64,000 nucleotides of DNA. It comes from a virus. The notes beneath the pieces were generated by a model. That model did not search any database, was not told where the DNA came from, and saw nothing but the letters and a program-made list of their open reading frames with translations. A program made the translations under genes and the position numbers. The stretch is taken from IMG/VR virus record IMGVR_UViG_3300045988_092861, positions 1-64,000 of that record. One strand, given 5' to 3'. Shown here piece by piece: positions 16,093-55,355 of the stretch (the stretch's first letter is position 1; each line of letters opens with the position of its first letter).

Positions 16093-16938
16093 ATGGAATA
16101 CGATTACAGTAAGCTCAGAGAGTACATCAAGCGTTGTAAGTGGCAATGGGCTACTTCTATGATAGACGTTCCTCACGAGTATATCCACAGAGACAAATGC
16201 GCTTTGACACGTGATGAATTCTATTACTTCGTCAGCGCACAAAGAGACAATGGAGTCCACGAAAGATGGGGAAAGTATAATTTCCCTTACCTTTACATTG
16301 ACGGTTATAAGTATTGGACGATGGGTGACCCATTCGAGACTACTTGGATTTTGAACAGACAGAAGGTTTTCAACGAGTTCGATTTCCTTGAGTGGCCAAT
16401 ACCGCGAATCTATTCGAACCAGGAGATGGACGTGATGGCAAGATCTATCATGTTCACGTTCAAGAACAGAAGATTTTTCGAGGCAGGCATCGGAAACGGA
16501 GACTTCGTCGCCTACACCAAGATAAAACCGGAAATGTATTATGGAGTTGATCCTAGCAAGAAAGCAATCAAGCAGTTCAGGGATAAGACCTCTGGTTTTT
16601 TCCGAAGATGTTCTACTATTTCTTTTGAGGAGGCGATAAAGAAATGGATGTCGGCAGACAGCGTTGTGGTTGCTCTTTTCGGTACAGCTTCCTACTTCAT
16701 GCCTCAGTATCTCCGTAAACTGGGCGAGAGTGGTCTGGATTATTGCCTTATGTTCTACAAGGATGACTACACCCCTGCAGAGTTCGAGGAAATGCACCAT
16801 TTCACCTACGACAGAATGCAGCTGAAATCAATGTTCCCGAATTGTAACATATACAATCACAAGAATTTCATAACCATTTCAAGTAAAAAAATCATCTGGC
16901 AACAGACGACATTAGAAAATGAAATATTCCCAGTATGA
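16093..16938 (+). CDS. Two-domain protein: phage-type WxWA...PHEY N-terminal domain plus class-I SAM methyltransferase
   Basis: KWQWATSMIDVPHEYI...YLYIDGYKYWTMG...ILNR, then FEAGIGNGDF, YYGVDPSK, VVALFGTASY. Confidence 0.7.
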   Translation: MEYDYSKLREYIKRCKWQWATSMIDVPHEYIHRDKCALTRDEFYYFVSAQRDNGVHERWGKYNFPYLYIDGYKYWTMGDPFETTWILNRQKVFNEFDFLEWPIPRIYSNQEMDVMARSIMFTFKNRRFFEAGIGNGDFVAYTKIKPEMYYGVDPSKKAIKQFRDKTSGFFRRCSTISFEEAIKKWMSADSVVVALFGTASYFMPQYLRKLGESGLDYCLMFYKDDYTPAEFEEMHHFTYDRMQLKSMFPNCNIYNHKNFITISSKKIIWQQTTLENEIFPV

Positions 16939-17461
16939 TAAAATAGCAAGTAAGTACGACACTTTGTTTCGTGATGAAATGAGTCTCGTTGAGAACCACG
17001 AGGTGGGGGAAAATCTCCCACCTCTCAGTGGTTCAATTCTAGACATCGGATGCGGAACCGGCTTACTTACAGAGATTGCAGAAATCGACCCGCAGGAATA
17101 CTTAGGAGTTGATCCTAGTAAAGGAATGTTGGAGCAGTTCATTAACAAACACCCTGAATATAAGGAAAGGGTAGTCTGCGAGCCTTTCGACGGTAAAAAC
17201 CTGGACTGCAAGAATTTTGATAACATTGTAGCTTTGTTCGGCTCTCCATCTTATCTTTCGCGGTATGCTGTTCTTTCAATATCACGGTGTAAAGCCCGAA
17301 AGTTCTTGATGTTTTACAAGGAGACGTATCACCCCGTCACTTACGAGAAATGCGATGTAGAATTTAGGCATTTCTTCTATTCCAAGAAGGTCTTGTGCAG
17401 TCTTTTCGGTGAAGAAAACGTATCAGAGTATCACAATTATTTAATAGTAAATTGCGTATGA
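16919..17461 (+). CDS. Class-I SAM-dependent methyltransferase (paralog of the 16093 C-terminal domain)
   Basis: ILDIGCGTGLLTE, YLGVDPSKGML, IVALFGSPSY, LMFYKETY. Confidence 0.75.
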   Translation: MKYSQYDKIASKYDTLFRDEMSLVENHEVGENLPPLSGSILDIGCGTGLLTEIAEIDPQEYLGVDPSKGMLEQFINKHPEYKERVVCEPFDGKNLDCKNFDNIVALFGSPSYLSRYAVLSISRCKARKFLMFYKETYHPVTYEKCDVEFRHFFYSKKVLCSLFGEENVSEYHNYLIVNCV

Positions 17462-18117
17462 CATCACAGAAAGGTTTGCGTTATGATGGCAGTATTGATA
17501 AATACCCCATCACAGAAGGCGAGATTTACAGTTTAGGCAATGGTAGCAAGATTACCATTGCCGATATTACTTTGGGGCTTCCAGAGTTTTCAAAGAATGC
17601 CGACTGCGTATTCATCGACCCAGCAGGAAGCAAAGGAGTCCTCAAAGCGTATTACACCAAGGCGGAGAAGCAATGCCCAGTTGACAATTTTGATGAGTTC
17701 GTTGCCCACATCAAGAGGTGCATCGAGCAGATTAATCCGGACAGACTATTCGTCGAGTGCTTCTACAGAAATAAGAAGCAGTTGGTTCCTATGGTAGAAT
17801 CGTTATTCCCTCATGTAAAAATCTACGAGAACACCTATTATCATAAGCCAGATTGCAAGTGTTGGATTATCCAAGGCTCCAAGCAGGCAGAAGACTGGGG
17901 ACTCCAGGGAATGGATGAATGGGATGCGGTGTTCAAGATTTGTAAGGATGTTCCGTTCAGCTCTATCACAGACTTCTTCATGGGTCAAGGACTTGTTGCC
18001 CAAGCAGCCTATGCTGCTGGCAAGGTTTTCTATGGTAGCGATATGAACAGAAATCGTTTGGCTGTAGCCATCAGCAAGGTTGCCAAGCGAGGTGGAGAAT
18101 GGACAGTAACTAAATAA
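17458..18117 (+). CDS. Beta-class (N4/N6 DNA-MTase-like) methyltransferase fold with a non-canonical catalytic motif
   Basis: The C-terminal DFFMGQGLVAQAAYAAGKVFYGSDMN fits motif I (FxGxG). The N-terminal DCVFIDPAG sits where (D/S)PPY is expected. The track start 17452 is TTG and the ATG at 17458 gives an ATGA overlap. Confidence 0.6.
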   Translation: MTSQKGLRYDGSIDKYPITEGEIYSLGNGSKITIADITLGLPEFSKNADCVFIDPAGSKGVLKAYYTKAEKQCPVDNFDEFVAHIKRCIEQINPDRLFVECFYRNKKQLVPMVESLFPHVKIYENTYYHKPDCKCWIIQGSKQAEDWGLQGMDEWDAVFKICKDVPFSSITDFFMGQGLVAQAAYAAGKVFYGSDMNRNRLAVAISKVAKRGGEWTVTK

Positions 18118-24370: not shown

Positions 24371-24452
24371 TTTCATATTTTTTAACTATGCTCGTAAGGC
24401 GTTTGCTCGTGAGAGTAAGCGCCTTAACTATTTGAATATCAATCTATTGTAA

Positions 24453-28392: not shown

Positions 28393-28429
28393 TAATCAAC
28401 GATTTAAATTCGTAATTTTGGTTAAAAGA

Positions 28430-28461
28430 TTTGGCAAATTGGCAAAATTTTCGTACCTTTG
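28430..28461 (+). promoter_or_regulatory. Cassette D promoter (variant upstream half)
   Basis: TTTG, N20, TACCTTTG. The TTGGCAAA direct repeat replaces the ATATAT palindrome. Confidence 0.6.
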
Positions 28462-28643
28462 CATATAGAAAAAGGGTAGTAATTTTGTCTAAGAGCCTAC
28501 TAAATAGGGCAACTGCAACGTTACGACCTGCCAAGGAGATAAGACCGGGACGCTGGTTCTCTAAGGCTGTTTTTCGAGGGCGTGACAAGCGGCTGCCCTT
28601 CTCTATTAAAATGAGCTTGATGGTTGCTTAATACGAAAAACTT

Positions 28644-29348
28644 ATGGCAACAAACGCAGACATGAGCTTGAAAGAGTTCGCAAAGGAAATGCTGGTCGAA
28701 GTTAGAAAGGACCAGGAGTGGTTAAAAAGGCAGAAGGAAATCATGGGTGATCTCCAGGAGAGAATCGATGAGTGCTTCAAGAAAGTGCAGAAGTGCGACA
28801 TGACAAAAGGCATCTACTCCACTACGCAGATGGCGAAGGAGTTGGGCATGAGCAGCGCACAGAAGTTGTACGAAGAGCTGAAGGAGGTTGGCCTTGCGTT
28901 CAACCAGGGTTATGAGTGGATGCTGACAAGTCCCTACTCCACCTACCAGCTAACTGAGGTGACTACACACCTTATCAAGGGCAAGTACATAAGAAGACCT
29001 CTTTGGACGGAGCGAGGCAGACGCTGGCTTCTCGCATTGAAGGAGAAGAACATCATCTGCAACCTCCCGAAGCCGAGAGTGCCGAAGGCTGTTGAGAAGT
29101 GTATTGCTTCTCAGTCCGGTGAGAAGAAGAAAGAGGTCAAGGTTGAGCCACCAACACCGCTGATGAAGAAAGCCGAGACGCTTAAGGATGAAATCAACTG
29201 CCTTTTGAGTCTCATTACAGAGGTCGGAAAGGGAGAGACGATGCTCCTTATGGGAGACATCATGACAATCTCCACAACCATCAGTGAGCACGTGAGCACA
29301 TTGACTTTCGAGGCTTACAAGACATTAAATGCACCAGCGAGGGCTTGA
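28644..29348 (+). CDS. KilAC/antirepressor-like DNA-binding protein (tentative)
   Basis: YSTTQMAKELGMSSAQKLYEELKEVGLAF...GYEWMLTSPY resembles the KilA-C domain. Coiled-coil N-terminus. Confidence 0.45.
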   Translation: MATNADMSLKEFAKEMLVEVRKDQEWLKRQKEIMGDLQERIDECFKKVQKCDMTKGIYSTTQMAKELGMSSAQKLYEELKEVGLAFNQGYEWMLTSPYSTYQLTEVTTHLIKGKYIRRPLWTERGRRWLLALKEKNIICNLPKPRVPKAVEKCIASQSGEKKKEVKVEPPTPLMKKAETLKDEINCLLSLITEVGKGETMLLMGDIMTISTTISEHVSTLTFEAYKTLNAPARA

Positions 29349-29407: not shown

Positions 29408-29520
29408 TAAAGGAGAAAGATAAAAGCACTGAAATTCATCCGGAACCTAAGCCCAAATTGAGTCAGGCAGGGGCGCCAATTAGGCCTGTTTGACCTTGGA
29501 TGGTTTCAGTGCTTCATTTT
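29408..29520 (+). ncRNA. Candidate ~110-nt structured RNA and bidirectional terminator
   Basis: AGCACTGAAA (29425-29434) pairs with TTTCAGTGCT (29504-29513), ATCC with GGAT, and inner CAGGC (29464-29468) with GCCTG (29484-29488). Followed by TCATTTTT. No ORF. Confidence 0.35.
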
Positions 29521-32708: not shown

Positions 32709-32735
32709 CAGATATATTCGCATATATTTAACGCA

Positions 32736-32880
32736 TTTAGTATTTTTAACTAAAATATCTATTAGTATATTTGCATATATCAAATAATTTTCGTACCTTT
32801 GCATATAGATAAAAGGTAGTACTTTTGACTATTCAGAGCCTACCTTACAAGTTGAACCAATTAAAATTATAAAGATTATG
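32736..32880 (+). repeat. Promoter-leader cassette, copy E
   Basis: Near-identical to copies A and C. Confidence 0.9.
32770..32801 (+). promoter_or_regulatory. Cassette E promoter
   Basis: TTTG, N20, TACCTTTG. Confidence 0.65.
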
Positions 32881-33309
32881 AATAATTCAATTGAAACTAA
32901 GAAGGCAGAGGTTAGAAAGAACATCAAGAATACACTTGAGTCAGCCAAGATTAAGATTATTAACGTAATTTCAGTTTGTCCTGATTGGGAGGTAGAATAT
33001 ATCAACTTAGGTTTTAAGTCACTTAACGTTCGTTTGATTTTAAAAGGAGTCGAAAGAGACAGAAGCCTGGAAATTCGTTACCAGAAAAAAGATGGCAACT
33101 TCCAGGAAGAGTCTTTTAACACCAATGTGGCAAGCTGTGGAGAATTTGACCTTCTTGAGGCAAACGACAACCTTAAGTACTACACGGCGATTGGCGACAT
33201 TCTCAACCACAAAGATATGCTTTCACTGTTGAAAGATACTATGGTTTATTTCACAAATAAACTTGTTGAGTTGGATAAAGAATATGATAAATTAGACCAG
33301 GAGGATTAG
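32878..33309 (+). CDS. Hypothetical 143-aa protein, paralog of 10633-11064
   Basis: Same length, the same leader, and shared VCPDW...KYYTAIG...YDKLDQED. Confidence 0.6.
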   Translation: MNNSIETKKAEVRKNIKNTLESAKIKIINVISVCPDWEVEYINLGFKSLNVRLILKGVERDRSLEIRYQKKDGNFQEESFNTNVASCGEFDLLEANDNLKYYTAIGDILNHKDMLSLLKDTMVYFTNKLVELDKEYDKLDQED

Positions 33310-39119: not shown

Positions 39120-39839
39120 ATGGGATATAAATATAAAGTAATTATGAAAAAGTTTATTGGTACAAAGGTCATTATGGCAGAGCCTATGACTATGACAGAA
39201 GCACAGAAAGTGCTTGGTAGAGAACTGAAGCCAGCAACCACTGAGGAAGATGGCTACCTTGTAGAGTACAAGAACGGATATAAGTCTTGGTCTCCTAAGA
39301 GTGTGTTTGATGAGTCTTATAAGTCAGCAGAGACATTCTTGGACAGAATGAAATTGGAGTTTGAAAGTGAAGTTGATAAATTTAAAAAGGGTGATACCTT
39401 TATTCGCTCTGAGAAGTTTAACGAGCTTCCTCTTGTTGCAAGAGTTCTTCTTTATGCGCAGAACAAGACTCAGAAAATGTACTGTGCCTTGTTGGAGAAC
39501 AGAATTGACGCCGCAGAGAATAATAACCCATTGCTAAAGCTATTTGACTTCGGCACAGCCATCAAGTTCTTGGAGGCAGGTGGAGCTATCCGCCGTAGTG
39601 GTTGGTATGGAAAGGGATTGTTTGTTGTAAAGCAGGTTCCTTCTCACATTACAGGTGACATCATTCCTAAGATGCAGTCATTGCCACAGATTGCTAAGGA
39701 CATCTTGATGAAGCGTGATAATCCACACATTGATTACACAAATCAGATGTTGATTATCAATCCTGATGGCAGAGCAGACTCATGGGTTCCATCATCTTCC
39801 GATGTGTTTGCGGAAGACTGGGAAGTTGTAGTTGAGTAA
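39120..39839 (+). CDS. Two-domain protein with C-terminal DUF2829 (Tad2-like) domain
   Basis: FGTAIKFLEAGGAIRRSGWYGKGLFV...SSSDVFAEDWEVV fits the DUF2829 pattern. The N-terminal GYLVEYKNGYKSWSPKSVFDESY is a common phage domain. Alternative start at 39144. Confidence 0.7.
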   Translation: MGYKYKVIMKKFIGTKVIMAEPMTMTEAQKVLGRELKPATTEEDGYLVEYKNGYKSWSPKSVFDESYKSAETFLDRMKLEFESEVDKFKKGDTFIRSEKFNELPLVARVLLYAQNKTQKMYCALLENRIDAAENNNPLLKLFDFGTAIKFLEAGGAIRRSGWYGKGLFVVKQVPSHITGDIIPKMQSLPQIAKDILMKRDNPHIDYTNQMLIINPDGRADSWVPSSSDVFAEDWEVVVE

Positions 39840-42992: not shown

Positions 42993-43235
42993 ATGGTTGC
43001 AATTAAAGTATCTTCCGAGAACATCCAAGAATTATGGAAATGCCCGGACGTTTCAGAGTTAGTTAAAACTGTCAGTGGAGACTGCACAAAGCAGACGCTG
43101 ATAGTTAGGTTGAGAAATCGAGAGTTCTATGTTCCATACGGATTCTATCTCGTAAAAGATGAGAATGGTCGTTGGAGCACACTCAGCCCATCGCTGTATG
43201 AGTTGATAAAAGATAAAGTTCATGGCGAGAAGTGA
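42993..43235 (+). CDS. Hypothetical protein
   Basis: Track ORF 42795 trimmed to the ATG after the upstream stop. Confidence 0.45.
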   Translation: MVAIKVSSENIQELWKCPDVSELVKTVSGDCTKQTLIVRLRNREFYVPYGFYLVKDENGRWSTLSPSLYELIKDKVHGEK

Positions 43236-43410
43236 GGAGGAAATCCGAGAATACCATAGAAGGTATTATCAGGAGCATAAGGAGCATCTATTGGCAAGAA
43301 TGGAAGTTTATCGTAAAGAGAATGCTGAAAGAATTACCGCAAACAGAAGATATAACAGAAAGAGAAAGAAAGCCTTGGGCGGCTTAATGAACCCAAATAT
43401 AAAATTATGA
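43222..43410 (+). CDS. Hypothetical basic coiled-coil protein
   Basis: 62-aa ORF. Confidence 0.4.
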   Translation: MARSEEEIREYHRRYYQEHKEHLLARMEVYRKENAERITANRRYNRKRKKALGGLMNPNIKL

Positions 43411-43706
43411 GCAGAGGAAAACATTTTAGTGCAGAAGAGATTGAGTTCATCAAGGTTAATGCTTTGGTGATGACAACAACAGAGATTGCGAAGAAGCTCA
43501 ATCGTAATTATTGGGCTATACATCGAAAGATGCAGGAACTCGGAATTAGTAAGAGCCACACGTTTACAGCAAATGAGGACTTTATTATCAGACAGATGTA
43601 TGGCAAGTTTCCAGCAAAGGCTATTGCGACAAAGATCGGTGTAGACGAAAATGCGATTTACAATCGTTGCAAGAAACTTAAGTTAACGAAAGGAGGTACG
43701 AAATGA
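43407..43706 (+). CDS. Tandem HTH-like DNA-binding protein (late regulator candidate)
   Basis: Two similar segments, MTTTEIAKKLNRNYWAIHRKMQELG and FPAKAIATKIGVDENAIYNRCKKL. Confidence 0.45.
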   Translation: MSRGKHFSAEEIEFIKVNALVMTTTEIAKKLNRNYWAIHRKMQELGISKSHTFTANEDFIIRQMYGKFPAKAIATKIGVDENAIYNRCKKLKLTKGGTK

Positions 43707-44335
43707 TAGTTATTGTGACTGCAATGGATAAGGAATATAACCTTATCAGAGAATGGCTTGCAAAGGCGAATGTAAAAAATACAGCATTACTCAAAACAGG
43801 TGTAGGAAAGGTGAATGCCGCAAGCGGCTTAAGCGACTTTCTATCTTCTGTTACAAGTGACGTTGTTACGAGAGTTATCTCTGTAGGATGTGCCGGTGCT
43901 GCCGTTGCAGGTTTGAAACCTGGTAATGTCATAATTGGTAATTCATACTGTTACCATGATGTATATTGTGGTGAACCGAATGCTAACGGTCAAATTCAAG
44001 GTATGCCAGCAGTCTTCCCTTCAGATTTTGCGTGGATCGATATGGATGAACGGTTCAGATTAGGAACTATAGCAACCGGAGATAAGTTTGTTACTACAAG
44101 AGAGCAAGTGTTAGCGATTAAGGATTTTCTTCCTAATTCGTATAACGTATGCGCCATTGATATGGAGTCTGCCGCCCTTGCTCAAGTATGCTACAAGAAA
44201 GGGATTGGTTTTACCTCCATTCGAGTTATTAGCGATAATCCTCTGGAACCAAGCCAAACCGAGCAGTATGCAGGATTTTGGGACAATTTAGCAGAAAAAG
44301 CGTTTAATGTTGTATGTAAGTTGTTAGAGAAATGA
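43703..44335 (+). CDS. mtnN: 5'-methylthioadenosine/S-adenosylhomocysteine nucleosidase
   Basis: Aligns by eye with E. coli Pfs: KTGVGKVNAA, TGDKF, IDMESAALAQV, IRVISDNP. Confidence 0.85.
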   Translation: MIVIVTAMDKEYNLIREWLAKANVKNTALLKTGVGKVNAASGLSDFLSSVTSDVVTRVISVGCAGAAVAGLKPGNVIIGNSYCYHDVYCGEPNANGQIQGMPAVFPSDFAWIDMDERFRLGTIATGDKFVTTREQVLAIKDFLPNSYNVCAIDMESAALAQVCYKKGIGFTSIRVISDNPLEPSQTEQYAGFWDNLAEKAFNVVCKLLEK

Positions 44336-44796
44336 TACCGAGTTTCAAAGTTGATCATACGAAACTAAAGCCAGGTCTTTATGTTTCAAGAGTAGACAAA
44401 TTAGGGTTGGAAATAGTCACCACATTTGACGTCCGTGTATGTAAGCCAAACAGAGATATGATGTCTCCAGCGATTGCTCATACTATCGAGCACTTGATGG
44501 CTGATTATATGCACAACAAGAGTTCACTGAAAGATTATGTCTTATATTTCGGGCCTATGGGATGCTTAACTGGTTTCTATCTCATTCTTAGAGGCGTTTG
44601 GACTTCTGCGATAATAAAGGATAGTATAGCAGTCGCCTTTAAAGAATGTTCTGTTTCAAAAGTAATTCCAGGAGCTTCAGAAAAAGAGTGTGGTAACTAT
44701 AGATTAAACGATTTAAAAGGGGCCACATTATTATGTAAAAAGTTTGCTTCATATCTTTCGAGTGTCGGAGAAGACAAACTTACTTATCCTATGTAA
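44332..44796 (+). CDS. luxS: S-ribosylhomocysteine lyase LuxS
   Basis: SFKVDHTKL, metal ligands HTIEHL, PMGCLTGFY, ECGNY. Confidence 0.85.
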   Translation: MIPSFKVDHTKLKPGLYVSRVDKLGLEIVTTFDVRVCKPNRDMMSPAIAHTIEHLMADYMHNKSSLKDYVLYFGPMGCLTGFYLILRGVWTSAIIKDSIAVAFKECSVSKVIPGASEKECGNYRLNDLKGATLLCKKFASYLSSVGEDKLTYPM

Positions 44797-44852
44797 TATT
44801 TATATGTAACTATAAAGTATTTAATCATTAAGTATATTTTCTTATAATATAT

Positions 44853-44883
44853 TTTGTGATTAAATACTTTTTATTTAATTTTG
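44853..44883 (+). promoter_or_regulatory. Structural (late) operon promoter with a 14-bp inverted repeat
   Basis: TTTG (44853-44856), N19, TAATTTTG (44876-44883). The repeat AAAGTATTTAATCA (44814-44827) / TGATTAAATACTTT (44857-44870) has its right arm in the spacer. Confidence 0.55.
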
Positions 44884-44955
44884 CGGCATTACTTACTATC
44901 GCTTCGTACTGGGATATTTTCTTGAATTTATTGTTCAATTAAATATTTAGTTAGA

Positions 44956-45654
44956 ATGAAAAAAAGAACGAAGCAAGTTTTAGTTATTCTGAAACCCAAA
45001 TCAAAGGCGTTGGGGTTCAGTAGAGAGGAGTTAGAGGGTATTGCTGCCGATGTTGCCAATAACTTAGAACTCGATGAAGAAGCCTCAGACGAGGATGTAA
45101 ACGCAGAGATTGAAAAGCAGGTCAATGCGGTTCTTCCTTATCTTAAAATTGCGCAAAAGACAGCGCAGCGTACTATCCAGAGTTTCAAGGATAGTAAAGA
45201 CTTGGATGACGACGAGGTCGATGATCCTGACGATGACCCTGCCGGCAACAAGAAACCAATCCGCAAACAGAAGAAAGAAAAAGAGGAAGAGCAGGTTCCA
45301 GCATGGGCACAGGCACTCATTACTCAGAACAAAGCCTTGCAGACCGAAATTCTCGGTTTGAAGTCAGAGCGTGAGAGTGATGGCCGCCGTTCTAAGCTGA
45401 AGGCACTCCTTAAGGACAAAGGTACGTTCGGAAAGACCGTCTTGAAGAATTTCGACAAGATGAAGTTTGAGAACGAATCTGAGTTCGACGATTTCTATGA
45501 TGGTGTTGTGGAGGACTTGGCAGCTATCGATCAAGAGCGCGCTAACGAAGGTCTCGGAAAACTTGGTGCTCCTGCGGCTCAGAGAAAGCCTAAGGAAGAA
45601 GAGGTTGAGGTTATCAAGGAAAATGAGATTGATGAGCTTGCCGAAACTATGTAA
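44956..45654 (+). CDS. Scaffolding protein (putative)
   Basis: Acidic, coiled-coil-like, 232 aa, directly upstream of the decoration-like and capsid genes. Confidence 0.5.
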   Translation: MKKRTKQVLVILKPKSKALGFSREELEGIAADVANNLELDEEASDEDVNAEIEKQVNAVLPYLKIAQKTAQRTIQSFKDSKDLDDDEVDDPDDDPAGNKKPIRKQKKEKEEEQVPAWAQALITQNKALQTEILGLKSERESDGRRSKLKALLKDKGTFGKTVLKNFDKMKFENESEFDDFYDGVVEDLAAIDQERANEGLGKLGAPAAQRKPKEEEVEVIKENEIDELAETM

Positions 45655-45673
45655 TCTTTAAATCCTAAAAGTT

Positions 45674-46066
45674 ATGTATGGTGTAAGCAAAACAAAAACG
45701 TTTGATTCAGGCAAAGAGTCTGTAATCATCAGAAATTATGTGAATGGCATCATGGGTGGTGTCATTCTCGACATGACAGGGTTTACTGGAGAGTTTATCC
45801 AGTGCGGACACATTATCATTCGTGATACCAAGTCTGGCGAATACAAGCCAATGCCGGTAACAGGTGATGCCTATGCGGCTCTTCCTGAAAACCACGAGTA
45901 TATTGGTGTCTGCATGACAACTGCTCCTGTAGATACCCCTCATGTAGGTGTTATGACGGCAGGTGAGGCTAATGATAAGGCTGTCCCTTATCCTGTCGAT
46001 ACGATCAAGGCAGCTTTGAAAACAGCCGTTCCTACTCTTCAGTGGGGACACGATGCAATCGGTTAA
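45674..46066 (+). CDS. Head decoration-like protein (putative)
   Basis: 130 aa. Its position before the capsid gene matches the lambda D/E order. Confidence 0.4.
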   Translation: MYGVSKTKTFDSGKESVIIRNYVNGIMGGVILDMTGFTGEFIQCGHIIIRDTKSGEYKPMPVTGDAYAALPENHEYIGVCMTTAPVDTPHVGVMTAGEANDKAVPYPVDTIKAALKTAVPTLQWGHDAIG

Positions 46067-46077
46067 GGAGGTGATTT

Positions 46078-47385
46078 ATGCAACAGAGTTCTTTATTTCT
46101 TAAGTATATCATGAGTTTCTTCCCAATCTTGAAGACTTTGATTGAGAAGATTAACGGTAAGCGCAAGAACGAGATGACGTATCTCCATAAGGATACATCC
46201 ATTCTCCGCCGCGTTTATTCTACCGACAACAAATGGGAAGCCGACACGGTCGACACCTCTTACGTAGCAGCTGACTACGTAGCTGTTGATTCACCTGTTC
46301 CTTTGAAGTCTCGTGACAAGATTTCTACCGCAAACGGCAAATTGCCAAAGGTCGGTATGAAGAAATTCTTGAAGGAGTCAGATATCCTCGCTCTCAGACT
46401 CATGGAAGCACAGGGCGGTCAGACAGCAGAGATTCGTCGTAAGTTGGCTCAGGACCCGGTAGCTTGTAATGTCGGTGTTGATGAGCGTAATGAGTACGCC
46501 CTTCTGTATGGTCTTTCTAACGGCTACGTAGCTGTTCGTGACGACGATAATCCAAAGGAGTTGCTCCGTATCAAGTATCGGTACTTGCCAGAAAATCAGC
46601 TCGGCATCAACAATGTTGATACTGGTGTTACAGTTGCAGACTTGAAGGAATGTATCGAGCAAGCATCGAATGATGGCAACACCATCTTGATCTTCTGGAT
46701 TGGAAAGGCTAAGTTTGACGAATTGAAGAAGGCACAGGACGCTCGCGAGCTTGTTGCCAACTACAAGGGTCAGACTTATGACTCCAACACAAAGCTGCCG
46801 GTTCCTACTGCCAGCGTATTCCAGGAGGCATTCTTGGACGAGACCGGTGTATCATTCCGCATCATCAACCGTACTGTCCGCTTGGAGCATGATGGCGTGA
46901 AGAAGAGTGTTAAGCCTTGGAACAACGATATGATTATCGGTGTCTGCTCACAGATGATTGGTGCCCTCGTTTACGGTCAGGTAGCAGAGGCAACCAACAG
47001 AGTGGCAGGTGTAACCTATCAGCAGATTGATTACAAGCTTATTTCTCAGTATTCAACAACTGATCCATTGCGTGAGACTACTGCGGTGCAGGCATACTGC
47101 TTGCCTGTCATCGAGGACGTTGACACAATCTATCAGATTGATACTAAGCTGGCAGACCCAGACGTTTCTGTTGATACCGAAAAGGAGAAAGCAGATACAG
47201 AGGACGCTAAGGTAACAATCTCTGATGTGACCTACAAGAAGCCGGAGGCTATCACAACTCTCAACGCTCTTGGTGCTACACTTCCTAGTAACGCCAGCGA
47301 CAAGGAGGTTATTGATGCCTACAATGAGCTGCCTCCTACAAAGAAGAAGGAGTTCAAGGATAACGCAGCTAAAGCTGAGGAGTAA
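46078..47385 (+). CDS. Major capsid protein (lambda gpE-like, putative)
   Basis: 435 aa. Assigned by position. AAGGAGG lies 7 nt upstream of the ATG. Confidence 0.65.
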   Translation: MQQSSLFLKYIMSFFPILKTLIEKINGKRKNEMTYLHKDTSILRRVYSTDNKWEADTVDTSYVAADYVAVDSPVPLKSRDKISTANGKLPKVGMKKFLKESDILALRLMEAQGGQTAEIRRKLAQDPVACNVGVDERNEYALLYGLSNGYVAVRDDDNPKELLRIKYRYLPENQLGINNVDTGVTVADLKECIEQASNDGNTILIFWIGKAKFDELKKAQDARELVANYKGQTYDSNTKLPVPTASVFQEAFLDETGVSFRIINRTVRLEHDGVKKSVKPWNNDMIIGVCSQMIGALVYGQVAEATNRVAGVTYQQIDYKLISQYSTTDPLRETTAVQAYCLPVIEDVDTIYQIDTKLADPDVSVDTEKEKADTEDAKVTISDVTYKKPEAITTLNALGATLPSNASDKEVIDAYNELPPTKKKEFKDNAAKAEE

Positions 47386-50492: not shown

Positions 50493-53400
50493 ATGCCAAG
50501 CATAAAATTCGATACAATAGTCGAGACCTCTAAGGTAGTTTCTGGTTTTCGAGACATTCAGAACGCAGTTCATCAGACTGCCGAGAGGGTTGAGAAGGAC
50601 GGAAAGTCCATTGACGACATAATCTCGAAAATACAAAACAGCATGAACATTGCCATTGGCGGTTGGAGCATTGGCAAGTTCGTCAATCAGATGATGCAGG
50701 TCCGCGGTCAGTTCCAGCAGACAGAAATGGCTTTCAAGACAATGTTGCAGTCTGAGGAGAAAGCTGATGCGCTTATGAAGCAGTTGATCCGCACGGCAGC
50801 CGTCACACCTTTCGGGATTGAAGACGTTACAGAGGGAGCCAAGCAGCTCCTTGCGTTTAACGTAGCAGCCGAGGATGTCAACAAGACGCTTATCGGATTG
50901 GGAGACGTTGCTGCAGGTATGGGCCTGAACCTTAAAGACCTCGTGATGCTTTATGGCACCACCATCGCCAAGGGCAAGATGGACACGATGGACTTGTATC
51001 AGTTCCTCAACCGAGGTATTCCTATCGCAGACGAGATTGCAAAGGTTATGGGCCTTGACGTTACCAATGCTATCAAGGAGGTCCAGAAGCAAATCAAGGC
51101 TGGCAAGGTAACCAGCGACGTTTTCATCCAGGCAATGCAGAATATGTCTGCAGAGGGTAGTAAGTTCGGTGGATTGATGGAAGCTCAGTCTAAGACCATT
51201 ACCGGCCAGATAAGCAACATCAAGGACGCTATCGAGCAGATGTTCAACGAACTTGGTAAGTCTCAGGAGGGTGTCATCAATACCGGATTGGGAGTTGTTT
51301 CTACCCTCGTAGAGAACTGGAAGACTGTAGGAAAAGTTCTTATGACCGTTGTCGCTGCCTATGGAGCATACAAAGCTGCTGTTTTGGCAATGATTGCAAT
51401 ATCAAAGGCTCAAATAGCTTGGGAAAGTGCTAAAGCATTTATTTCTTTGGCACGTTCTATAACTTCCGCAAAGGATGCGATGGCGCTGTTCAACCTTGTT
51501 GCGTCATCTAATCCTTTGGGTCTTGTCTTGGGTGTAATTGCTGCTGGTGTTACCCTATTCGGATTATTCGGCGATAGTGCTGAAGATGCAGCAACCAAGA
51601 CCTCCAAGTTTACCGAGAGTGCAAATGAAGCATCAAGTAAGGTCGAGTCGTTAGTCTCCATTCTGAAGACTGCAAAGGAAGGCTCCAAGGTTTATAAGGA
51701 CACCATCAAGGAGCTGTCAAGCATATATAGCAACTATGGTATTACCATTGACAGGATCAAAGAAGATGAGAGTAATCTCGTTAGTGTTAAGCAGCAGGAG
51801 ATTGATAAGTCTAACGAGCTTATCGAGCAAATCAAGCTGGAGGCTACAGAGCGCAACAGAGCCAATGCAATCTCTAAGGCCAACGAAGAATACAACAACC
51901 GTGTTGATAGTGCTCAGCAAGCCCTTTTGGATAAGTTGAAGGATTATGGAACCTCCAGTAGTGGTATTGCGGTAGGCATACAGAACATCGTATCTGATTC
52001 GGTTATCAAGCAGTTTGATGAGTTGACACAGAAGATGTCTGGCTTGAATGAGCACTCCAAGGAGTATCAGACATATCTGAAACAATACAATCAGCTGGAA
52101 GCTTCTTTGATTTCAGAATCAGAAAATCTTGCTAATGCTTTTGGGTTTACAGGAGACAAGACAAGCGATGCCAGGAAGGCTTTGATAGGCTATCTCTATG
52201 AACTTCGAGCTGCAAAGAAGCTGCATACCGAGGAGGCTGATAATATCAACAAAGCTGCAGATGCTACTGAAGATTTCGGTAATAAGGCTACCTCAACCAA
52301 GAACAGGATAAACGCTTTGCAGAAGCAGCTCCAGGGTGCCGGTGAGGATGTACACGTTCTCTACAACCGTGTCAAGGAGTTCATGCAGAACTATTCCGAG
52401 AACAACATCAACTTCCACGTCAACTTCGATGCCAAGATACCATCGTGGATGCAGAATATGAATATTCCGGAACTGGGACGTTTAGGTAAGTACTTCTCTG
52501 CTTTGGCACGTGACCTTGCAAACAACAAGAAGTCTGGTGCGCTAGTCAATGGTAAATGGATGTCAACAAATGATATCGCTCAACGAGGATGGGATTATAC
52601 CAATGCAGCGAACACCAAGCAGACAAAAGCTGACGAAGAGGAAAAGCAGAAGCGTCGCGAAAAGGAAGAGGCAGAAGCAAACGCAAAGAAGAACGCTGCC
52701 AAAGCCAAGAAAGCCGCAGCCGATGCCAAGAAGCAGGCAGAAGACCGCAAGAAGGCCCAGGAGGAACTTAATGAGGACTTGAAGCAGCTGCAGCAGGAAA
52801 ACATCGACAATGATATATCTCAGATGCAGGAAGGCACGGAAAAGAAGCTTGCTCAAATCAAGAACGACTATGCCAAGCGCAAAGCCGAGATTGATAAGCA
52901 AGAAGCAGAGTTCAAGAAGAAAAACAAGGAAGCTGGCAAGAAAGTAACCCTTACCTCTGCTCAGTCCAATGCCCTCAATAAGGCCAGAGACCTCGCTACC
53001 CAAGAGTATAACAAGAAGCTTGATGAGGTCAACAGGGAAGCCCTCACCTCTATGCGTGACTACTTGAAGGAGTATGGCTCACTCTATCAGCAGAAGCAAG
53101 CCATTGCCGAGGAGTACGAGGAAAAGATTGCCAAGGCTCAGACGGAAGGCGAGAAGAAGACTCTCCAGCAGGAGAAGAAAAAAGCACTCGCCAACTTCGA
53201 CTACGAAAGCATCTCTATGGGCATTGACTGGAAGGGTCTGATGAGTGGTGTAGGTAATATGAGCAAGGAAATGCTCAAACCAATGCTTGAAAAGTTAGAT
53301 GCCTATACCAACACGGACAAATTTCAGCAAGCCGATACTCAGACACAACAGAAGGTTGTTGACCTCATGCAGGAGATTCGCACTTACCTCGGGACTGATC

Positions 53401-55355
53401 AGAATGCAACGTGGCAGAACCTTGCTGCATCCATCAGCAGTTTCAATCAGTCTGTTGCTGAGTACCAAAAGGCTGTTGAGGAAGAGAAGAGACAGAGTGA
53501 AAACTTCAAGTCCGCAAAGGCTCTCCATGACAAGGGCAGTATCTCCGACAAGGAACTTCAGCAGGCAAAGAAAGCTACTGATGATGCAAGTCAAGCGGTA
53601 GTTGATGCCAAAAACAAAATGAATACCTTCGGTATCAAGCTCAACTCAGCTACGGAAGCCGTTACGAACTATACTTCGGGGCTTACTGCTGCACTCAACA
53701 AGCTCGGAACGTGGAAAGGCAACGAAGGGTTCTCTGAGGTACAATCATCAGTAGGCAACATAGATGCTTTGAAGGGTGTTCTTGATGAATCTCTCTCCAC
53801 TATGGGCAACGGAGTAGCCAAGACGATGGGCGCAACCATATCGAAAGGTTTAGGAAGTGCTCTCGACACTATCGGAGGTGGAATAACCAATATGATGGGT
53901 AGTGCTCTCGGCTCAATCGTAGGAGTGGTGGCACAGATACCGAAACTCATCCTCAATCTCGCAAGTTCCATAAAGAGCTTCGTGACCGGTATTCTTGATT
54001 CGTTTACTCAGCTACTTCAATTCGAATGGCTATCAGATTTGGTTAACAGCATTCTTGCTTCCGTGGGAAATCTCATTGATGCCATCTTCGACCTTCCAGA
54101 AAACCTATTCAAGGCTCTTGAAAGCATTGTTGTTAATGGTGTTGGCGGTCTCTTAGATAACGTGTTAGGTCGTGTAGGTAACGTTCTCTCTCTCGGTGCA
54201 CTTTCTTCGAAAGGTCCATCTGATTGGTTCACCAACTCGAATGCAGCGAAGGTAAATCAACGCATATCGGAGTTAACGGATAGTAATGCGCGGTTGGATG
54301 ATTCCATCAATAGGCTGAGGAACACCATGGATAAGTCCTATGGTCAACAAACCAAGAAAGCCTATGAGGAAGCCAAAAGACAGCAACAGCAGAAGAATGA
54401 CAACCTTAAAGAGATTGCCAAGCAGAAAGCAAGCTATCATAGCTCCCATAAATCTTGGAATCACTATTGGAGTGGGTTCAGTAGTGATGAGATAAAGAAA
54501 ATCCAAGAAGCTATTGGCAAGGACTTCAATGGTGACATCTGGAGTTTGGATGAGAACGACATAAACACCATGTTAGGCTATGAGTGGTTCACTACTAAGA
54601 TACGCAGAACAGGTAAGATATACAAGGGGCGTTCCGCTTATGGAGAGGCAGTTCTTAAAGCCATGCAGGACTGGGGAGACTCAGCAGGCACGATGGATGA
54701 AATTACTGACGAGTTCAAGGAAGCCCTCACTCAGATTTCCTTTGACAGCATGAGAGATAGTTTTATCAGCAACCTCATGGACATGACCAAGAGTGCACAG
54801 GATTTCTCTGATGATTTCGCAGAAATGATGCAGAAAGCCCTCCTCTCCTACTCCATGGACGACCTCATTGAAGGCGACTTGAAGAAGCTTTATGATGATT
54901 GGGCAAAGGCAATCGATGATAAAGAAGGAAAGCTCACAGAAGCAGACATAGACGCATTCAACAAGCGTTACGATGATATAGTCCAGGAAGGCTTGAAGAG
55001 ACGTGACGAGTGGGCAAAAGTGACAGGCTACACTGGTTCTTCATCCTCATCACAGACCGCAACAAGCGGAGGATGGGCATCTATGGGGCAAGATACCGCC
55101 GATGAGCTGAATGGTCGCTTCACCGCCCTGCAGATTGCAGGAGAGTCTATCGCTCAGAACATGACTACCACCATATCACAGATGGAGAGCATCGTTACAC
55201 TCGGAATCTCAACCAATGGCGCAGTATTAGAGATTAGAAACATGATGATCATGACAAACAGCTACCTCGAAGACATCGTGAAGTATTCAAAGCTCACCTA
55301 TAATGACTTCGGAACAAAGCTGGATGACATGATCAGAAGATTAAAGGATATTTGA
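50493..55355 (+). CDS. Tape measure protein
   Basis: 1620 aa with long coiled-coil/KAE-rich segments, TM-like Gly/Ala-rich stretches, and the expected position. Confidence 0.85.
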   Translation: MPSIKFDTIVETSKVVSGFRDIQNAVHQTAERVEKDGKSIDDIISKIQNSMNIAIGGWSIGKFVNQMMQVRGQFQQTEMAFKTMLQSEEKADALMKQLIRTAAVTPFGIEDVTEGAKQLLAFNVAAEDVNKTLIGLGDVAAGMGLNLKDLVMLYGTTIAKGKMDTMDLYQFLNRGIPIADEIAKVMGLDVTNAIKEVQKQIKAGKVTSDVFIQAMQNMSAEGSKFGGLMEAQSKTITGQISNIKDAIEQMFNELGKSQEGVINTGLGVVSTLVENWKTVGKVLMTVVAAYGAYKAAVLAMIAISKAQIAWESAKAFISLARSITSAKDAMALFNLVASSNPLGLVLGVIAAGVTLFGLFGDSAEDAATKTSKFTESANEASSKVESLVSILKTAKEGSKVYKDTIKELSSIYSNYGITIDRIKEDESNLVSVKQQEIDKSNELIEQIKLEATERNRANAISKANEEYNNRVDSAQQALLDKLKDYGTSSSGIAVGIQNIVSDSVIKQFDELTQKMSGLNEHSKEYQTYLKQYNQLEASLISESENLANAFGFTGDKTSDARKALIGYLYELRAAKKLHTEEADNINKAADATEDFGNKATSTKNRINALQKQLQGAGEDVHVLYNRVKEFMQNYSENNINFHVNFDAKIPSWMQNMNIPELGRLGKYFSALARDLANNKKSGALVNGKWMSTNDIAQRGWDYTNAANTKQTKADEEEKQKRREKEEAEANAKKNAAKAKKAAADAKKQAEDRKKAQEELNEDLKQLQQENIDNDISQMQEGTEKKLAQIKNDYAKRKAEIDKQEAEFKKKNKEAGKKVTLTSAQSNALNKARDLATQEYNKKLDEVNREALTSMRDYLKEYGSLYQQKQAIAEEYEEKIAKAQTEGEKKTLQQEKKKALANFDYESISMGIDWKGLMSGVGNMSKEMLKPMLEKLDAYTNTDKFQQADTQTQQKVVDLMQEIRTYLGTDQNATWQNLAASISSFNQSVAEYQKAVEEEKRQSENFKSAKALHDKGSISDKELQQAKKATDDASQAVVDAKNKMNTFGIKLNSATEAVTNYTSGLTAALNKLGTWKGNEGFSEVQSSVGNIDALKGVLDESLSTMGNGVAKTMGATISKGLGSALDTIGGGITNMMGSALGSIVGVVAQIPKLILNLASSIKSFVTGILDSFTQLLQFEWLSDLVNSILASVGNLIDAIFDLPENLFKALESIVVNGVGGLLDNVLGRVGNVLSLGALSSKGPSDWFTNSNAAKVNQRISELTDSNARLDDSINRLRNTMDKSYGQQTKKAYEEAKRQQQQKNDNLKEIAKQKASYHSSHKSWNHYWSGFSSDEIKKIQEAIGKDFNGDIWSLDENDINTMLGYEWFTTKIRRTGKIYKGRSAYGEAVLKAMQDWGDSAGTMDEITDEFKEALTQISFDSMRDSFISNLMDMTKSAQDFSDDFAEMMQKALLSYSMDDLIEGDLKKLYDDWAKAIDDKEGKLTEADIDAFNKRYDDIVQEGLKRRDEWAKVTGYTGSSSSSQTATSGGWASMGQDTADELNGRFTALQIAGESIAQNMTTTISQMESIVTLGISTNGAVLEIRNMMIMTNSYLEDIVKYSKLTYNDFGTKLDDMIRRLKDI

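What the first reader, a model, noticed from the sequence alone, without database searches (positions are those of the whole stretch)
43703..44796. Phage-encoded Pfs (MTA/SAH nucleosidase)-LuxS pair at the end of the accessory region
Both proteins keep their catalytic signatures. Pfs has KTGVGKVNAA, TGDKF, IDMESAALA and IRVISDNP. LuxS has HTIEHL, PMGCLTGFY and CGNY. The genes overlap by 4 nt. It is established that together they convert S-adenosylhomocysteine to homocysteine plus DPD, the AI-2 precursor. Two non-exclusive inferences follow. First, they may remove SAH, the product inhibitor of SAM-dependent methyltransferases, to sustain the three phage MTase-fold enzymes at 16-18 kb during genome modification. 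Second, they may let the phage produce or manipulate the AI-2 quorum signal of the gut or oral community. I am not aware of this pair being a usual phage cargo.
Basis: partly seen in the sequence, partly recalled or inferred. Interest (0 to 1): 0.7.

Follow-up and report, generated by a model that had tools for sequence, protein, structure and literature searches.

The report
Gut phage Pfs–LuxS methyl-cycle genes
A gut phage, probably infecting Bacteroidales, carries intact genes for the two enzymes that break down S-adenosylhomocysteine and release the AI-2 signal precursor; the genes are real and conserved, but virome surveys had already catalogued this pair.

Summary
ORFs 43703-44335 (Pfs/MtnN) and 44332-44796 (LuxS) overlap by 4 nt, pass curated family cut-offs and keep every catalytic residue. 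They lie inside a phage genome, directly upstream of the head module.

The same gene order (HTH regulator, Pfs, LuxS, then capsid genes) is found in all 80 related IMG/VR contigs examined. Both genes are under strong purifying selection (dN/dS about 0.06).

The pair is not new. Kieft et al. 2021 listed luxS and mtnN among the dominant organosulfur auxiliary genes of human-associated viruses and noted their co-occurrence.

What I add is that LuxS is the constant occupant of this slot across the wider phage group. Its partners vary: Pfs, MetK (SAM synthetase), both, or neither.

This pattern fits a phage "activated methyl cycle" module (SAM supply, SAH disposal, homocysteine recycling) better than a dedicated quorum-signal device. 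AI-2 precursor release is still an unavoidable by-product.

Only two of the three "MTase-fold" ORFs at 16-18 kb are supported.

The host is inferred, not shown, to be Bacteroidales. Function has not been tested. Verdict: real and biologically sensible, a new member of a known kind, of moderate interest.

The parts
43222..43410 (+). Small ORF (62 aa, basic). It overlaps the next gene by 4 nt and is the first gene of the translationally coupled run.
   Evidence: ORF list. Conserved at 92-98% identity in most related loci. No function assigned.
43407..43706 (+). HTH transcriptional regulator (99 aa). It lies upstream of LuxS in every related phage lineage: directly upstream where Pfs is absent, otherwise with Pfs in between. 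It overlaps Pfs by 4 nt.
   Evidence: PHROG phrog_323 'transcriptional regulator' at 9.2e-20. Weak Pfam HTH_11 hit. Position conserved in all slot variants.
43703..44335 (+). Pfs/MtnN, the 5'-methylthioadenosine/S-adenosylhomocysteine nucleosidase (210 aa). This is a short form that lacks the beta-hairpin at E. coli residues 23-37.
   Evidence: Profile hits. PDB sequence matches. Catalytic residue mapping. AF2 model pLDDT 95.7, with the top 50 PDB structural hits all MTAN. Median dN/dS 0.065.
44332..44796 (+). LuxS, S-ribosylhomocysteine lyase (154 aa). It is the constant gene of this slot across the phage group.
   Evidence: Profile hits. Alignment to B. subtilis LuxS structures, with metal ligands and catalytic Cys/Glu conserved. 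Invariant columns. Median dN/dS 0.055. The phage-group LuxS forms one clade with 82% NJ bootstrap.
44797..44955 (+). AT-rich intergenic region between luxS and the head module. It contains a Bacteroidetes-type -7 promoter motif, TAATTTTG, at 44876-44883. This probably marks the start of the late (head) transcription unit, which would make luxS the last gene of the preceding unit.
   Evidence: Sequence. The TAnnTTTG motif is enriched in the window (81 hits vs 56 +/- 7.7 expected). No intrinsic terminator was detected. The promoter role is inferred.
44956..47385 (+). Start of the head module: a scaffold-like ORF (44956-45654), a conserved head-module ORF (45674-46066) and the major capsid protein (46078-47385). 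This is context that anchors the pair inside the phage.
   Evidence: phrog_5824, phrog_38330 and phrog_29, plus Pfam Phage_cap_E. Synteny holds in all related loci.
16093..18117 (+). Candidate SAM-dependent methyltransferase cluster, the possible 'clients' of SAH removal. 16919-17461 is a class I SAM-MTase with motif DIGCGTG. 16093-16938 has a C-terminal paralogue with motif EAGIGNG. 17452-18117 is uncertain.
   Evidence: Pfam Methyltransf_25/12/11. phrog_4752. Paralogy by BLASTP at 9e-18. Weak mad2 hit for 17452-18117. Any functional link to Pfs-LuxS is inference only.
32743..32882 (+). Last copy, before the pair, of a promoter/operator-like intergenic cassette that occurs seven times in the window. 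It probably marks the start of the approximately 12-kb run of small accessory ORFs that ends with HTH-Pfs-LuxS.
   Evidence: Repeat families D1-D3. Triplets of TAnnTTTG motifs. The transcription-unit assignment is inferred.

Best explanation
The two genes encode an active MTA/SAH nucleosidase (MtnN/Pfs) and an S-ribosylhomocysteine lyase (LuxS). They are carried as a fixed auxiliary metabolic module of a 60-80 kb human-gut phage lineage that probably infects Bacteroidales.

Proposed mechanism:
- The genes are expressed as the tail end of a translationally coupled run (small ORF, HTH, Pfs, LuxS) just before the head genes.
- Pfs irreversibly cleaves SAH, the product inhibitor of SAM-dependent methyltransferases, and probably also MTA and 5'-deoxyadenosine. 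The products are adenine and S-ribosylhomocysteine.
- LuxS converts S-ribosylhomocysteine to homocysteine plus DPD.
- The net effect during infection is to keep the activated methyl cycle running. SAH stays low, homocysteine returns to methionine and SAM, and adenine is salvaged. Phage and host methylation reactions are then not throttled.
- DPD/AI-2 is released as an obligatory by-product.

What is shown and what is inferred:
- Shown: gene identity, intact active sites, phage residence, conservation, and purifying selection.
- Shown: in relatives the same slot carries MetK and/or Pfs alongside a constant LuxS.
- Inferred: enzymatic activity, timing of expression, which methyltransferases benefit, the identity of the host, and that methyl-cycle maintenance rather than signalling is the selected benefit.
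For: Identity and intactness:
- Curated-cut-off profile hits.
- All catalytic and ligand residues conserved.
- Confident MTAN fold.

Phage residence:
- Small and large terminase, portal, head morphogenesis protein, capsid and tape measure are on both sides.

Fixation and selection:
- 140 IMG/VR contigs hold a relative.
- All 80 fetched loci show identical synteny.
- Median dN/dS is 0.065 for Pfs and 0.055 for LuxS.
- Only 1 of 80 loci has a nonsense codon, and one sub-lineage has a frameshift.

Methyl-cycle theme. Phages with the homologous head module (capsid 58-98% identical) fill the same slot in five ways:
- HTH-Pfs-LuxS
- HTH-LuxS
- MetK-HTH-LuxS
- MetK-HTH-Pfs-LuxS
- HTH-Pfs-LuxS with a frameshift in luxS
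MetK, Pfs and LuxS are three of the steps of the activated methyl cycle.

Other support:
- SAM-MTase genes are present in the same genome, and a Dam-type MTase is present in a relative.
- mtnN-luxS in this order is the native operon of many gut Bacteroidales and is interchangeable with sahH for completing the cycle (10.64898/2026.07.27.740950).
- Bacteroidales host indicators: the large terminase is 48% identical to B. fragilis phages, the TAnnTTTG promoter motif is enriched, and PcfJ-like and crAss001_48/Tad2-like domains are present.
Against: - No experiment exists. Activity, expression and the benefit to the phage are all untested.
- If SAH detoxification were the whole point, Pfs alone would suffice. 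Yet LuxS is the conserved gene and Pfs the dispensable one. So homocysteine recycling or DPD production must matter in its own right.
- The methyltransferase 'clients' lie about 27 kb away. Their targets are unknown, and I could not test co-variation between MTase content and module composition, because only +/-10 kb of each related contig was available.
- The host was not identified. It is therefore unknown whether the phage enzymes duplicate a host mtnN-luxS pathway or add a new route to a sahH-type host.
- Kieft et al. read the same genes as feeding sulfide production rather than methylation.
Confidence: 0.6

Rival explanations
1. Signal manipulation. The selected function is production of DPD/AI-2, so that infected cells emit, or over-emit, the interspecies quorum signal. 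This would alter the behaviour of the host population or of neighbouring species, for example biofilm formation, prophage induction or receptor expression. SAH turnover would only be the substrate supply.
For: - LuxS, the AI-2 synthase, is the invariant gene of the slot, and Pfs is optional. SAH detoxification alone does not need LuxS.
- The phage LuxS clade is old and vertically retained (82% bootstrap).
- About 45% of Bacteroidales species use sahH and make no AI-2. In such a host a phage LuxS would create a new signal, given host or phage Pfs.
- AI-2 from Bacteroidales is thought to affect other gut species.
Against: - MetK appears in the same module in two lineages. This is more simply explained by methyl-cycle flux.
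- Tested Bacteroidaceae showed no transcriptional or fitness response to AI-2.
- No AI-2 receptor or Lsr-type gene was found among the window's annotated ORFs.
- A lysing cell is a short-lived emitter.
Confidence: 0.2
2. Sulfur and nucleobase salvage. The module exists to channel SAH and methionine sulfur into homocysteine, cysteine and sulfide, and to release adenine for nucleotide synthesis. This is the organosulfur AMG interpretation of Kieft et al.
For: - Kieft et al. classify mtnN and luxS as AMGs that indirectly feed sulfide production, and find them abundant in human-associated viruses.
- The window also carries a PAPS-reductase-family gene at 19296-20489.
- Pfs releases adenine from SAH, MTA and 5'-dAdo (established enzymology).
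Against: - The PAPS_reduct gene carries DUF3440 and is flanked by ParB_N proteins. From my own knowledge this is an IbrA/IbrB-like or DndC-like arrangement, which points to DNA or protein modification rather than sulfate assimilation.
- LuxS-only lineages release no adenine.
- No cystathionine-pathway genes were seen near the slot.
Confidence: 0.12
3. Artefact or passenger. The segment is host DNA captured by mis-assembly or imprecise excision, or it is a neutral and decaying passenger.
For: - The genes are of cellular type, and pfs-luxS adjacency is common in bacteria (28 of 84 loci).
- One relative has a nonsense codon and one sub-lineage has a frameshift in luxS.
- Several INPHARED 'phage' records with luxS look like host contamination.
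Against: - The position between phage genes is identical in all related contigs examined, which come from many samples.
- The genes are translationally coupled to a phage regulator.
- dN/dS is about 0.06.
- Identity to any sampled cellular LuxS is at most about 50%.
- The phage LuxS clade is monophyletic.
Confidence: 0.02

Closest known systems
Viral organosulfur auxiliary metabolic genes mtnN and luxS (Kieft et al. 2021, bioRxiv 10.1101/2021.01.05.425418)
   Same: - The same two gene families occur on human-associated viral genomes.
- Their co-occurrence on one genome was reported, as was purifying selection.
- A loose association with Prevotella/Bacteroidales was reported.
   Different: - That work is a survey and reads the genes as feeding sulfide production.
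- In the passages I retrieved it does not describe the fixed slot upstream of the head module, the constancy of LuxS against the variable Pfs and MetK partners, or the short hairpin-less Pfs.
Chromosomal mtnN-luxS operon of gut Bacteroidales (Kennedy et al. 2026, bioRxiv 10.64898/2026.07.27.740950)
   Same: - The gene order is the same (mtnN then luxS).
- The pathway is the same: SAH to SRH to homocysteine plus DPD.
- The likely host order is the same.
   Different: - The phage copy is at most about 50% identical to any cellular LuxS sampled.
- It sits next to capsid genes, not next to yfhO.
- It is coupled to a phage HTH regulator.
- The preprint does not mention phages.
Canonical bacterial MTAN (E. 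coli Pfs, PDB 1JYS/1NC1) and LuxS (B. subtilis, PDB 1J98/1IE0)
   Same: - The folds match, and all catalytic and metal-binding residues are present.
   Different: - Pfs is 20-34% identical to solved MTANs in the structural alignments.
- It lacks the beta-hairpin (E. coli 23-37) and residues 128-135.
- It has Cys in place of Ser76.
- LuxS gives only 94 bits against B. subtilis LuxS, a distant match.
Other phage tools that act on the SAM pool (T3 SAM lyase; phage-encoded MetK AMGs)
   Same: - They target the same metabolite network (SAM and SAH) during infection.
- MetK occurs in the same slot in related phages.
   Different: - From my own knowledge, T3-type SAM lyases destroy SAM to disarm restriction. 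This module should instead sustain SAM-dependent chemistry.
- No SAM lyase was found among the window's large ORFs that I annotated.

Membership tests
MTA/SAH nucleosidase (MtnN/Pfs, EC 3.2.2.9) | PNP_UDP_1 (nucleoside phosphorylase-I) fold | tested here: met
   Pfam PF01048 at 96.8 bits against a cut-off of 25.1. AF2 model pLDDT 95.7. The top 50 PDB structural matches are all MTAN or futalosine-type nucleosidases, with TM 0.73-0.86.
MTA/SAH nucleosidase (MtnN/Pfs, EC 3.2.2.9) | Score above a curated equivalog cut-off | tested here: inconclusive
   TIGR01704 scores 79.5 bits, above its cut-off of 73.8. NF004079 scores 107.9 bits, below its cut-off of 169. One curated model is passed and the other is not, which is consistent with a divergent subfamily.
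MTA/SAH nucleosidase (MtnN/Pfs, EC 3.2.2.9) | Catalytic acid Asp197, water-activating Glu12, ribose-binding Met173/Glu174 and Arg193, and base-stacking Phe151 (E. coli numbering) | tested here: met
   D178, E11, M154/E155, R174 and F129 are present. The reference sequence was verified as identical to PDB 3O4V/1JYS. These columns are invariant or nearly invariant in 38 homologues.
MTA/SAH nucleosidase (MtnN/Pfs, EC 3.2.2.9) | Hydrolysis of SAH (and MTA) to adenine plus the thio-ribose product | not testable with these tools
   This needs an enzyme assay or complementation of an E. coli pfs mutant.
S-ribosylhomocysteine lyase (LuxS, EC 4.4.1.21) | LuxS family profile above curated cut-offs | tested here: met
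   Pfam PF02664 at 156.1 bits against a cut-off of 27. NCBIfam NF002604 at 159.8 bits against a cut-off of 158.
S-ribosylhomocysteine lyase (LuxS, EC 4.4.1.21) | Metal ligands His54, His58 and Cys126, and catalytic Glu57 and Cys84 (B. subtilis numbering) | tested here: met
   H50, H54, C120, E53 and C78 are present. They are invariant across 19 phage and cellular homologues.
S-ribosylhomocysteine lyase (LuxS, EC 4.4.1.21) | Second-subunit substrate-binding residues Ser6, His11 and Arg39 (the active site sits at the homodimer interface) | tested here: met
   S4, H9 and R35 are conserved. Dimerisation itself was not tested.
S-ribosylhomocysteine lyase (LuxS, EC 4.4.1.21) | Production of homocysteine plus DPD/AI-2 | not testable with these tools
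   This needs an AI-2 bioassay or LC-MS, or complementation of a luxS mutant.
Viral auxiliary metabolic gene (AMG) | Flanked on both sides by viral genes and conserved in related viral genomes | tested here: met
   A phage regulator lies upstream, and scaffold-like and capsid genes lie downstream. Synteny is the same in all 80 loci and in more distant relatives.
Viral auxiliary metabolic gene (AMG) | Purifying selection on the viral copy | tested here: met
   Median pairwise dN/dS is 0.065 for Pfs and 0.055 for LuxS. This is as low as or lower than the capsid (0.09) and the scaffold-like gene (0.15).
Viral auxiliary metabolic gene (AMG) | Expressed during infection, with a metabolic effect on the host | not testable with these tools
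   No transcriptome and no cultured host-phage pair are available.
Bacteroidales chromosomal mtnN-luxS locus (Kennedy et al. 2026) | Gene order mtnN then luxS | tested here: met
   The same order is seen in a Marinifilaceae genome (L149). Clostridia mostly have luxS then pfs.
Bacteroidales chromosomal mtnN-luxS locus (Kennedy et al. 2026) | Core-genome location adjacent to yfhO | tested here: not met
   The phage copy lies between an HTH regulator and head genes. It is therefore not a member of that chromosomal locus, although it should work in the same way.
Bacteroidales chromosomal mtnN-luxS locus (Kennedy et al. 2026) | Sequence nested within Bacteroidales LuxS/MtnN | tested here: inconclusive
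   The phage LuxS is 47-51% identical to both Bacteroidota (Alloprevotella) and Clostridia LuxS. The NJ tree does not resolve a sister group.

The most novel reading that the evidence does not exclude
LuxS may be an ancient, near-core gene of a whole group of gut Bacteroidales phages, kept for its own product rather than as an accessory to Pfs.

In hosts that complete the methyl cycle with SahH and make no AI-2 (for example B. fragilis, B. thetaiotaomicron, Parabacteroides), infection would switch cells into AI-2 emitters. This would be a phage-made 'infection signal' readable by other gut species.

Alternatively, or in addition, these phages may be a standing reservoir for the repeated sahH-to-mtnN-luxS replacements seen across Bacteroidales.
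Probability: 0.12. Interest if true: 0.75.

Novelty: new member of a known kind. Interest (0 to 1): 0.42.

Why it matters
If the module works as inferred, an abundant human-gut phage lineage actively manages the SAM/SAH balance of its host during infection. That would bear on phage DNA and RNA methylation, evasion of restriction, and host methionine economy.

It would also mean that phage infection adds to the gut's AI-2 pool. AI-2 production in Bacteroidales has just been shown to depend strictly on whether a species has mtnN-luxS or sahH.

The comparative pattern gives a natural experiment for separating the metabolic role from the signalling role. LuxS is constant, while Pfs and MetK come and go. 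That separation has been a long-standing ambiguity for LuxS in general.

The practical value is limited until a host is identified and the enzymes are tested.

Tried and rejected
- **Host identification by closest cellular homologues.** It returned only LuxS of 50% identity or less, mostly from Clostridia. Cluster look-ups gave almost no organism names. No tRNA genes were found. No integrase was found among the annotated ORFs. The host therefore remains an inference from terminase similarity, promoter motifs and domain content.
- **Sigma-70 promoter scan.** It was uninformative (8 sites vs 7.0 expected), and no terminator was found after luxS. The Bacteroidetes-type motif was more informative.
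- **Pfs as a PNP-domain defence or anti-defence effector.** Rejected: it scores 15.5 bits to the PADLOC PN-superfamily effector against 108 bits to MTAN.
- **The N-terminal shortening of Pfs as a phage-specific truncation or pseudogene.** Rejected: at least one homologue in a cellular-looking gene context lacks the same hairpin, and the model is confident.
- **INPHARED records with LuxS or Pfs.** These are 'UNVERIFIED Bacteriophage sp.' records (MT8354xx-MT8357xx) and Listeria, Staphylococcus, Enterococcus and Salmonella records. They are unannotated or look like host contamination, so I did not use them as evidence of independent phage acquisitions.
- **Apparent loss of LuxS in L278/L279.** This turned out to be a frameshift in an A-run, not an absence.
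- **First NJ bootstrap script.** It timed out and was rerun with a faster implementation.
- **Named gut-phage family linked to LuxS in the literature.** None was found.
Full report

Yes. The ORF list shows 43703-44335 (+, 210 aa) and 44332-44796 (+, 154 aa) overlapping by the 4-nt ATGA.

The first ORF matches Pfam PNP_UDP_1 at 1.7e-27. It also matches the NCBIfam MTA/SAH-nucleosidase equivalog TIGR01704 above its curated cut-off (79.5 vs 73.8 bits). It falls short of the cut-off of a second equivalog, NF004079 (107.9 vs 169 bits).

The second ORF matches Pfam LuxS at 7.8e-46 and NCBIfam NF002604 above its cut-off (159.8 vs 158 bits).

I aligned both proteins to solved structures. All catalytic positions are retained:
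- Pfs M8, E11, F129, M154/E155, R174 and S177/D178.
- LuxS metal ligands H50, H54 and C120, catalytic E53 and C78, and second-subunit residues S4, H9 and R35.

**2. One anomaly, resolved.**

Pfs is about 20 residues shorter than canonical MTANs. It lacks the beta-hairpin at E. coli residues 23-37 and residues 128-135.

Several homologues lack the same hairpin, including one (P0236) whose neighbours are cellular-type genes such as a TonB-dependent receptor and a radical-SAM enzyme. An AlphaFold2 model built on 38 homologues is very confident (pLDDT 95.7, pTM 0.92). Its 50 best PDB matches are all MTA/SAH or closely related nucleosidases, with TM 0.73-0.86.

A PADLOC scan gave only 15.5 bits to the PNP-type defence effector. 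So this is an MTAN, not an ATP-nucleosidase effector.

**3. Is it in a phage?**

Yes. The window encodes the following phage functions:

| Feature | Coordinates |
|---|---|
| DnaB-type helicase | 9061-10464 |
| Small terminase | 22366-22902 |
| Large terminase | 22892-24370 |
| DNA ligase | 26002-26796 |
| Antirepressor | 28644-29348 |
| Head-morphogenesis protein | 29520-31088 (-) |
| SPP1-type portal | 31263-32678 (-) |
| Tad2-like anti-Thoeris protein | 39120-39839 |
| Major capsid protein | 46078-47385 |
| Long probable tape-measure protein | 50493-55355 |

The tape-measure call rests on the homologous gene in relatives carrying Pfam TMP_3.

The pair sits at the end of a long run of small +strand ORFs. 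It is 160 nt upstream of the scaffold-like, head-module and capsid genes.

No cellular genome among the 598 confirmed LuxS matches holds a LuxS more than about 50% identical.

**4. Conservation.**

A scan of IMG/VR found 140 viral contigs encoding a relative, mostly 40-80 kb and from human-gut samples.

In all 80 fetched loci the order HTH, Pfs, LuxS, scaffold-like gene, head-module ORF, capsid is identical. Pairwise Nei-Gojobori estimates give a median dN/dS of 0.065 for Pfs and 0.055 for LuxS. That is at least as constrained as the capsid (0.09).

One small contig (L055) has a nonsense codon in luxS.

Between the window's sub-clade and the larger sub-clade, the HTH-Pfs-LuxS block is far more diverged than the adjacent head genes. 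Synonymous divergence (dS) is above 1 or saturated for the block and 0.12-0.34 for the head genes. This indicates mosaic exchange with a breakpoint near the luxS-head intergenic region.

**5. The key extension: LuxS is the constant and its partners vary.**

I looked up contexts of more distant relatives and tabulated all loci. Phages with the homologous head module (capsid 58-98% identical) always have the HTH regulator and LuxS in this slot. The slot composition differs:

| Slot composition | Where seen |
|---|---|
| HTH-Pfs-LuxS | Window clade, about 90 loci; also L168-170 and L176 |
| HTH-LuxS alone | L171, L175, L252-263 |
| MetK-HTH-LuxS, with no Pfs within +/-10 kb | L165-167, L173 |
| MetK-HTH-Pfs-LuxS | L280 |
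| HTH-Pfs-LuxS, with luxS frameshifted in an A-run | L278/L279 |

An NJ tree places the Pfs-linked, MetK-linked and solo LuxS sequences in one clade (82% bootstrap). The LuxS of the more distant L280 phage lies outside it.

MetK, Pfs and LuxS are three steps of the activated methyl cycle. So the slot is best described as a methyl-cycle module centred on LuxS.

**6. Mechanism.**

Established enzymology holds that Pfs irreversibly hydrolyses SAH (and also MTA and 5'-deoxyadenosine) to adenine plus S-ribosylhomocysteine. LuxS then cleaves S-ribosylhomocysteine to homocysteine plus DPD, which cyclises to AI-2.

The best-supported reading is that the phage keeps SAH low and recycles homocysteine, so that SAM-dependent reactions continue during infection. 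DPD is then an unavoidable by-product.

Evidence in favour:
- MetK occurs in the same slot in relatives.
- SAM-MTase genes are in this genome, and a Dam-type MTase is in a relative.

A caveat points the other way. SAH detoxification needs only Pfs, yet LuxS is the conserved gene. So either homocysteine recycling or DPD itself must be under selection. I therefore keep AI-2 manipulation as a live rival (0.2).

The recent Bacteroidales study weakens self-signalling for the probable host clade, since no AI-2 response was seen in tested Bacteroidaceae. It leaves cross-species effects open.

**7. Transcription context (inferred).**

The small ORF 43222-43410, the HTH gene, Pfs and LuxS are linked by three successive 4-nt overlaps.

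The Bacteroidetes -7 promoter motif TAnnTTTG is enriched in the window: 81 hits against 56 +/- 7.7 expected, with 0 of 100 shuffles reaching 81. One copy (44876-44883) lies between luxS and the head genes.

A 65-148-nt promoter/operator-like cassette recurs seven times. Its last copy before the pair is at 32743-32882. This suggests the pair ends a 12-kb accessory transcription unit.

The sigma-70 scan was uninformative, and no terminator follows luxS.

**8.

- 16919-17461 is a class I SAM-MTase (Methyltransf_25/12/11; phrog_4752).
- The C-terminal half of 16093-16938 is its paralogue (30% identity, 9e-18) and has a plausible EAGIGNG motif I.
- 17452-18117 has no Pfam, PHROG or NCBIfam hit. It has only a 19-bit PADLOC mad2 match.

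So two MTase-fold ORFs are supported and the third is uncertain. Their substrates are unknown.

**9. Host.**

The host was not identified directly. Indirect indicators point to Bacteroidales:
- The large terminase is 48-49% identical to B. fragilis phages BF503P4 and relatives.
- The promoter motif is enriched.
- PcfJ-like and crAss001_48/Tad2-like domains are present.
- Kieft et al. loosely associate luxS/mtnN viruses with Prevotella.

I do not know whether the host uses mtnN-luxS or sahH. That matters for interpretation.

**10. Comparison with what is known, and novelty.**

Kieft et al. (bioRxiv 10.1101/2021.01.05.425418) already reported three things:
- luxS and mtnN co-occur on viral genomes.
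- dN/dS is below 1.

GenBank also holds a LuxS annotated on a Caudoviricetes MAG, in a cluster 72% identical to this LuxS.

By contrast, PHROGs has no LuxS family and only a marginal Pfs hit. BFVD has no phage MTAN. INPHARED holds LuxS in 12 records and Pfs in 7, and none is a record of a cultured phage with a clean phage context.

Kennedy et al. 2026 (10.64898/2026.07.27.740950) show that gut Bacteroidales use either mtnN-luxS or sahH, with repeated replacements, and do not mention phages. The phage module uses the same gene order but is not a member of that chromosomal locus.

I class the finding as a new member of a known kind. The slot architecture and the constancy of LuxS are modest new observations.

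**11. Verdict.**

The genes are very likely functional (about 0.9). The physiological role is most likely methyl-cycle maintenance with obligatory AI-2 precursor release (about 0.6 for the whole statement). Interest is moderate (0.42), because the pair is already catalogued and nothing has been tested experimentally. The natural variation among relatives does offer a clean way to separate LuxS's metabolic role from its signalling role.

Noticed in passing
window 1144-1208, 6985-7049, 10499-10638, 15902-15990, 24452-24599, 28403-28491, 32735-32882: A 65-148-nt intergenic cassette recurs seven times. It contains a palindromic core (TATATTTGCATATATCAAATA) and two or three Bacteroidetes-type TAnnTTTG motifs spaced about 26-28 nt apart. 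It looks like a repeated promoter/operator that marks the starts of transcription units.
   Followed up: partly
window 18841-22369: A PAPS-reductase-family gene with DUF3440 (19296-20489) is embedded among four ParB_N-like ORFs (18841-19299, 20455-21117, 21114-21746, 21752-22369), just upstream of the terminase. From my own knowledge this resembles IbrA/IbrB or DndC-like modification systems rather than sulfate assimilation. AMG surveys would probably count it as 'cysH'.
   Followed up: partly
window 1475-2038: A 187-aa protein has a C-terminal LuxR/GerE-type HTH (3.9e-11) and an unassigned N-terminal domain of about 120 aa. There is no evidence that it binds an autoinducer, and AI-2 is not sensed by LuxR-type proteins.
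   Followed up: no
window 39120-39839: A protein combines a crAss001_48/Sequestin-type domain with a Tad2-like (Thoeris anti-defence 2) domain. This indicates an anti-Thoeris function in the accessory region. The same fusion is present in related phages.
   Followed up: no
window 43407-44796 versus 44956-47385 (compared with L020 and similar loci): Between two sub-clades of the phage, the HTH-Pfs-LuxS block is saturated at synonymous sites (dS 1.06 to saturated), while the adjacent head genes have dS of 0.12-0.34. This implies recombination with a breakpoint in or near the luxS-head intergenic region.
   Followed up: partly
window 16034-16076 and 44796-44838: The sequence just after the luxS stop codon is 74% identical over 43 nt to the sequence just upstream of the methyltransferase cluster (shared core AAGTATTTAATCAT). 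As a two-copy match it may be chance. It could also be a shared regulatory site (family D7).
   Followed up: no
L278 8660-9084 and L279 3814-4238 (NCBI assemblies GCA_963621785.1 and GCA_963634175.1): In a related phage lineage luxS is split by a frameshift in a run of A's, upstream of the Cys metal ligand, while Pfs is intact. This is either a pseudogene or a homopolymer sequencing error seen in two assemblies.
   Followed up: partly
window 18126-18860: A 244-aa ORF lies between the methyltransferase-like genes and the ParB/PAPS-reductase cluster. It has no hit in Pfam, PHROGs, NCBIfam or PADLOC. It may belong to a nucleic-acid modification module.
   Followed up: no
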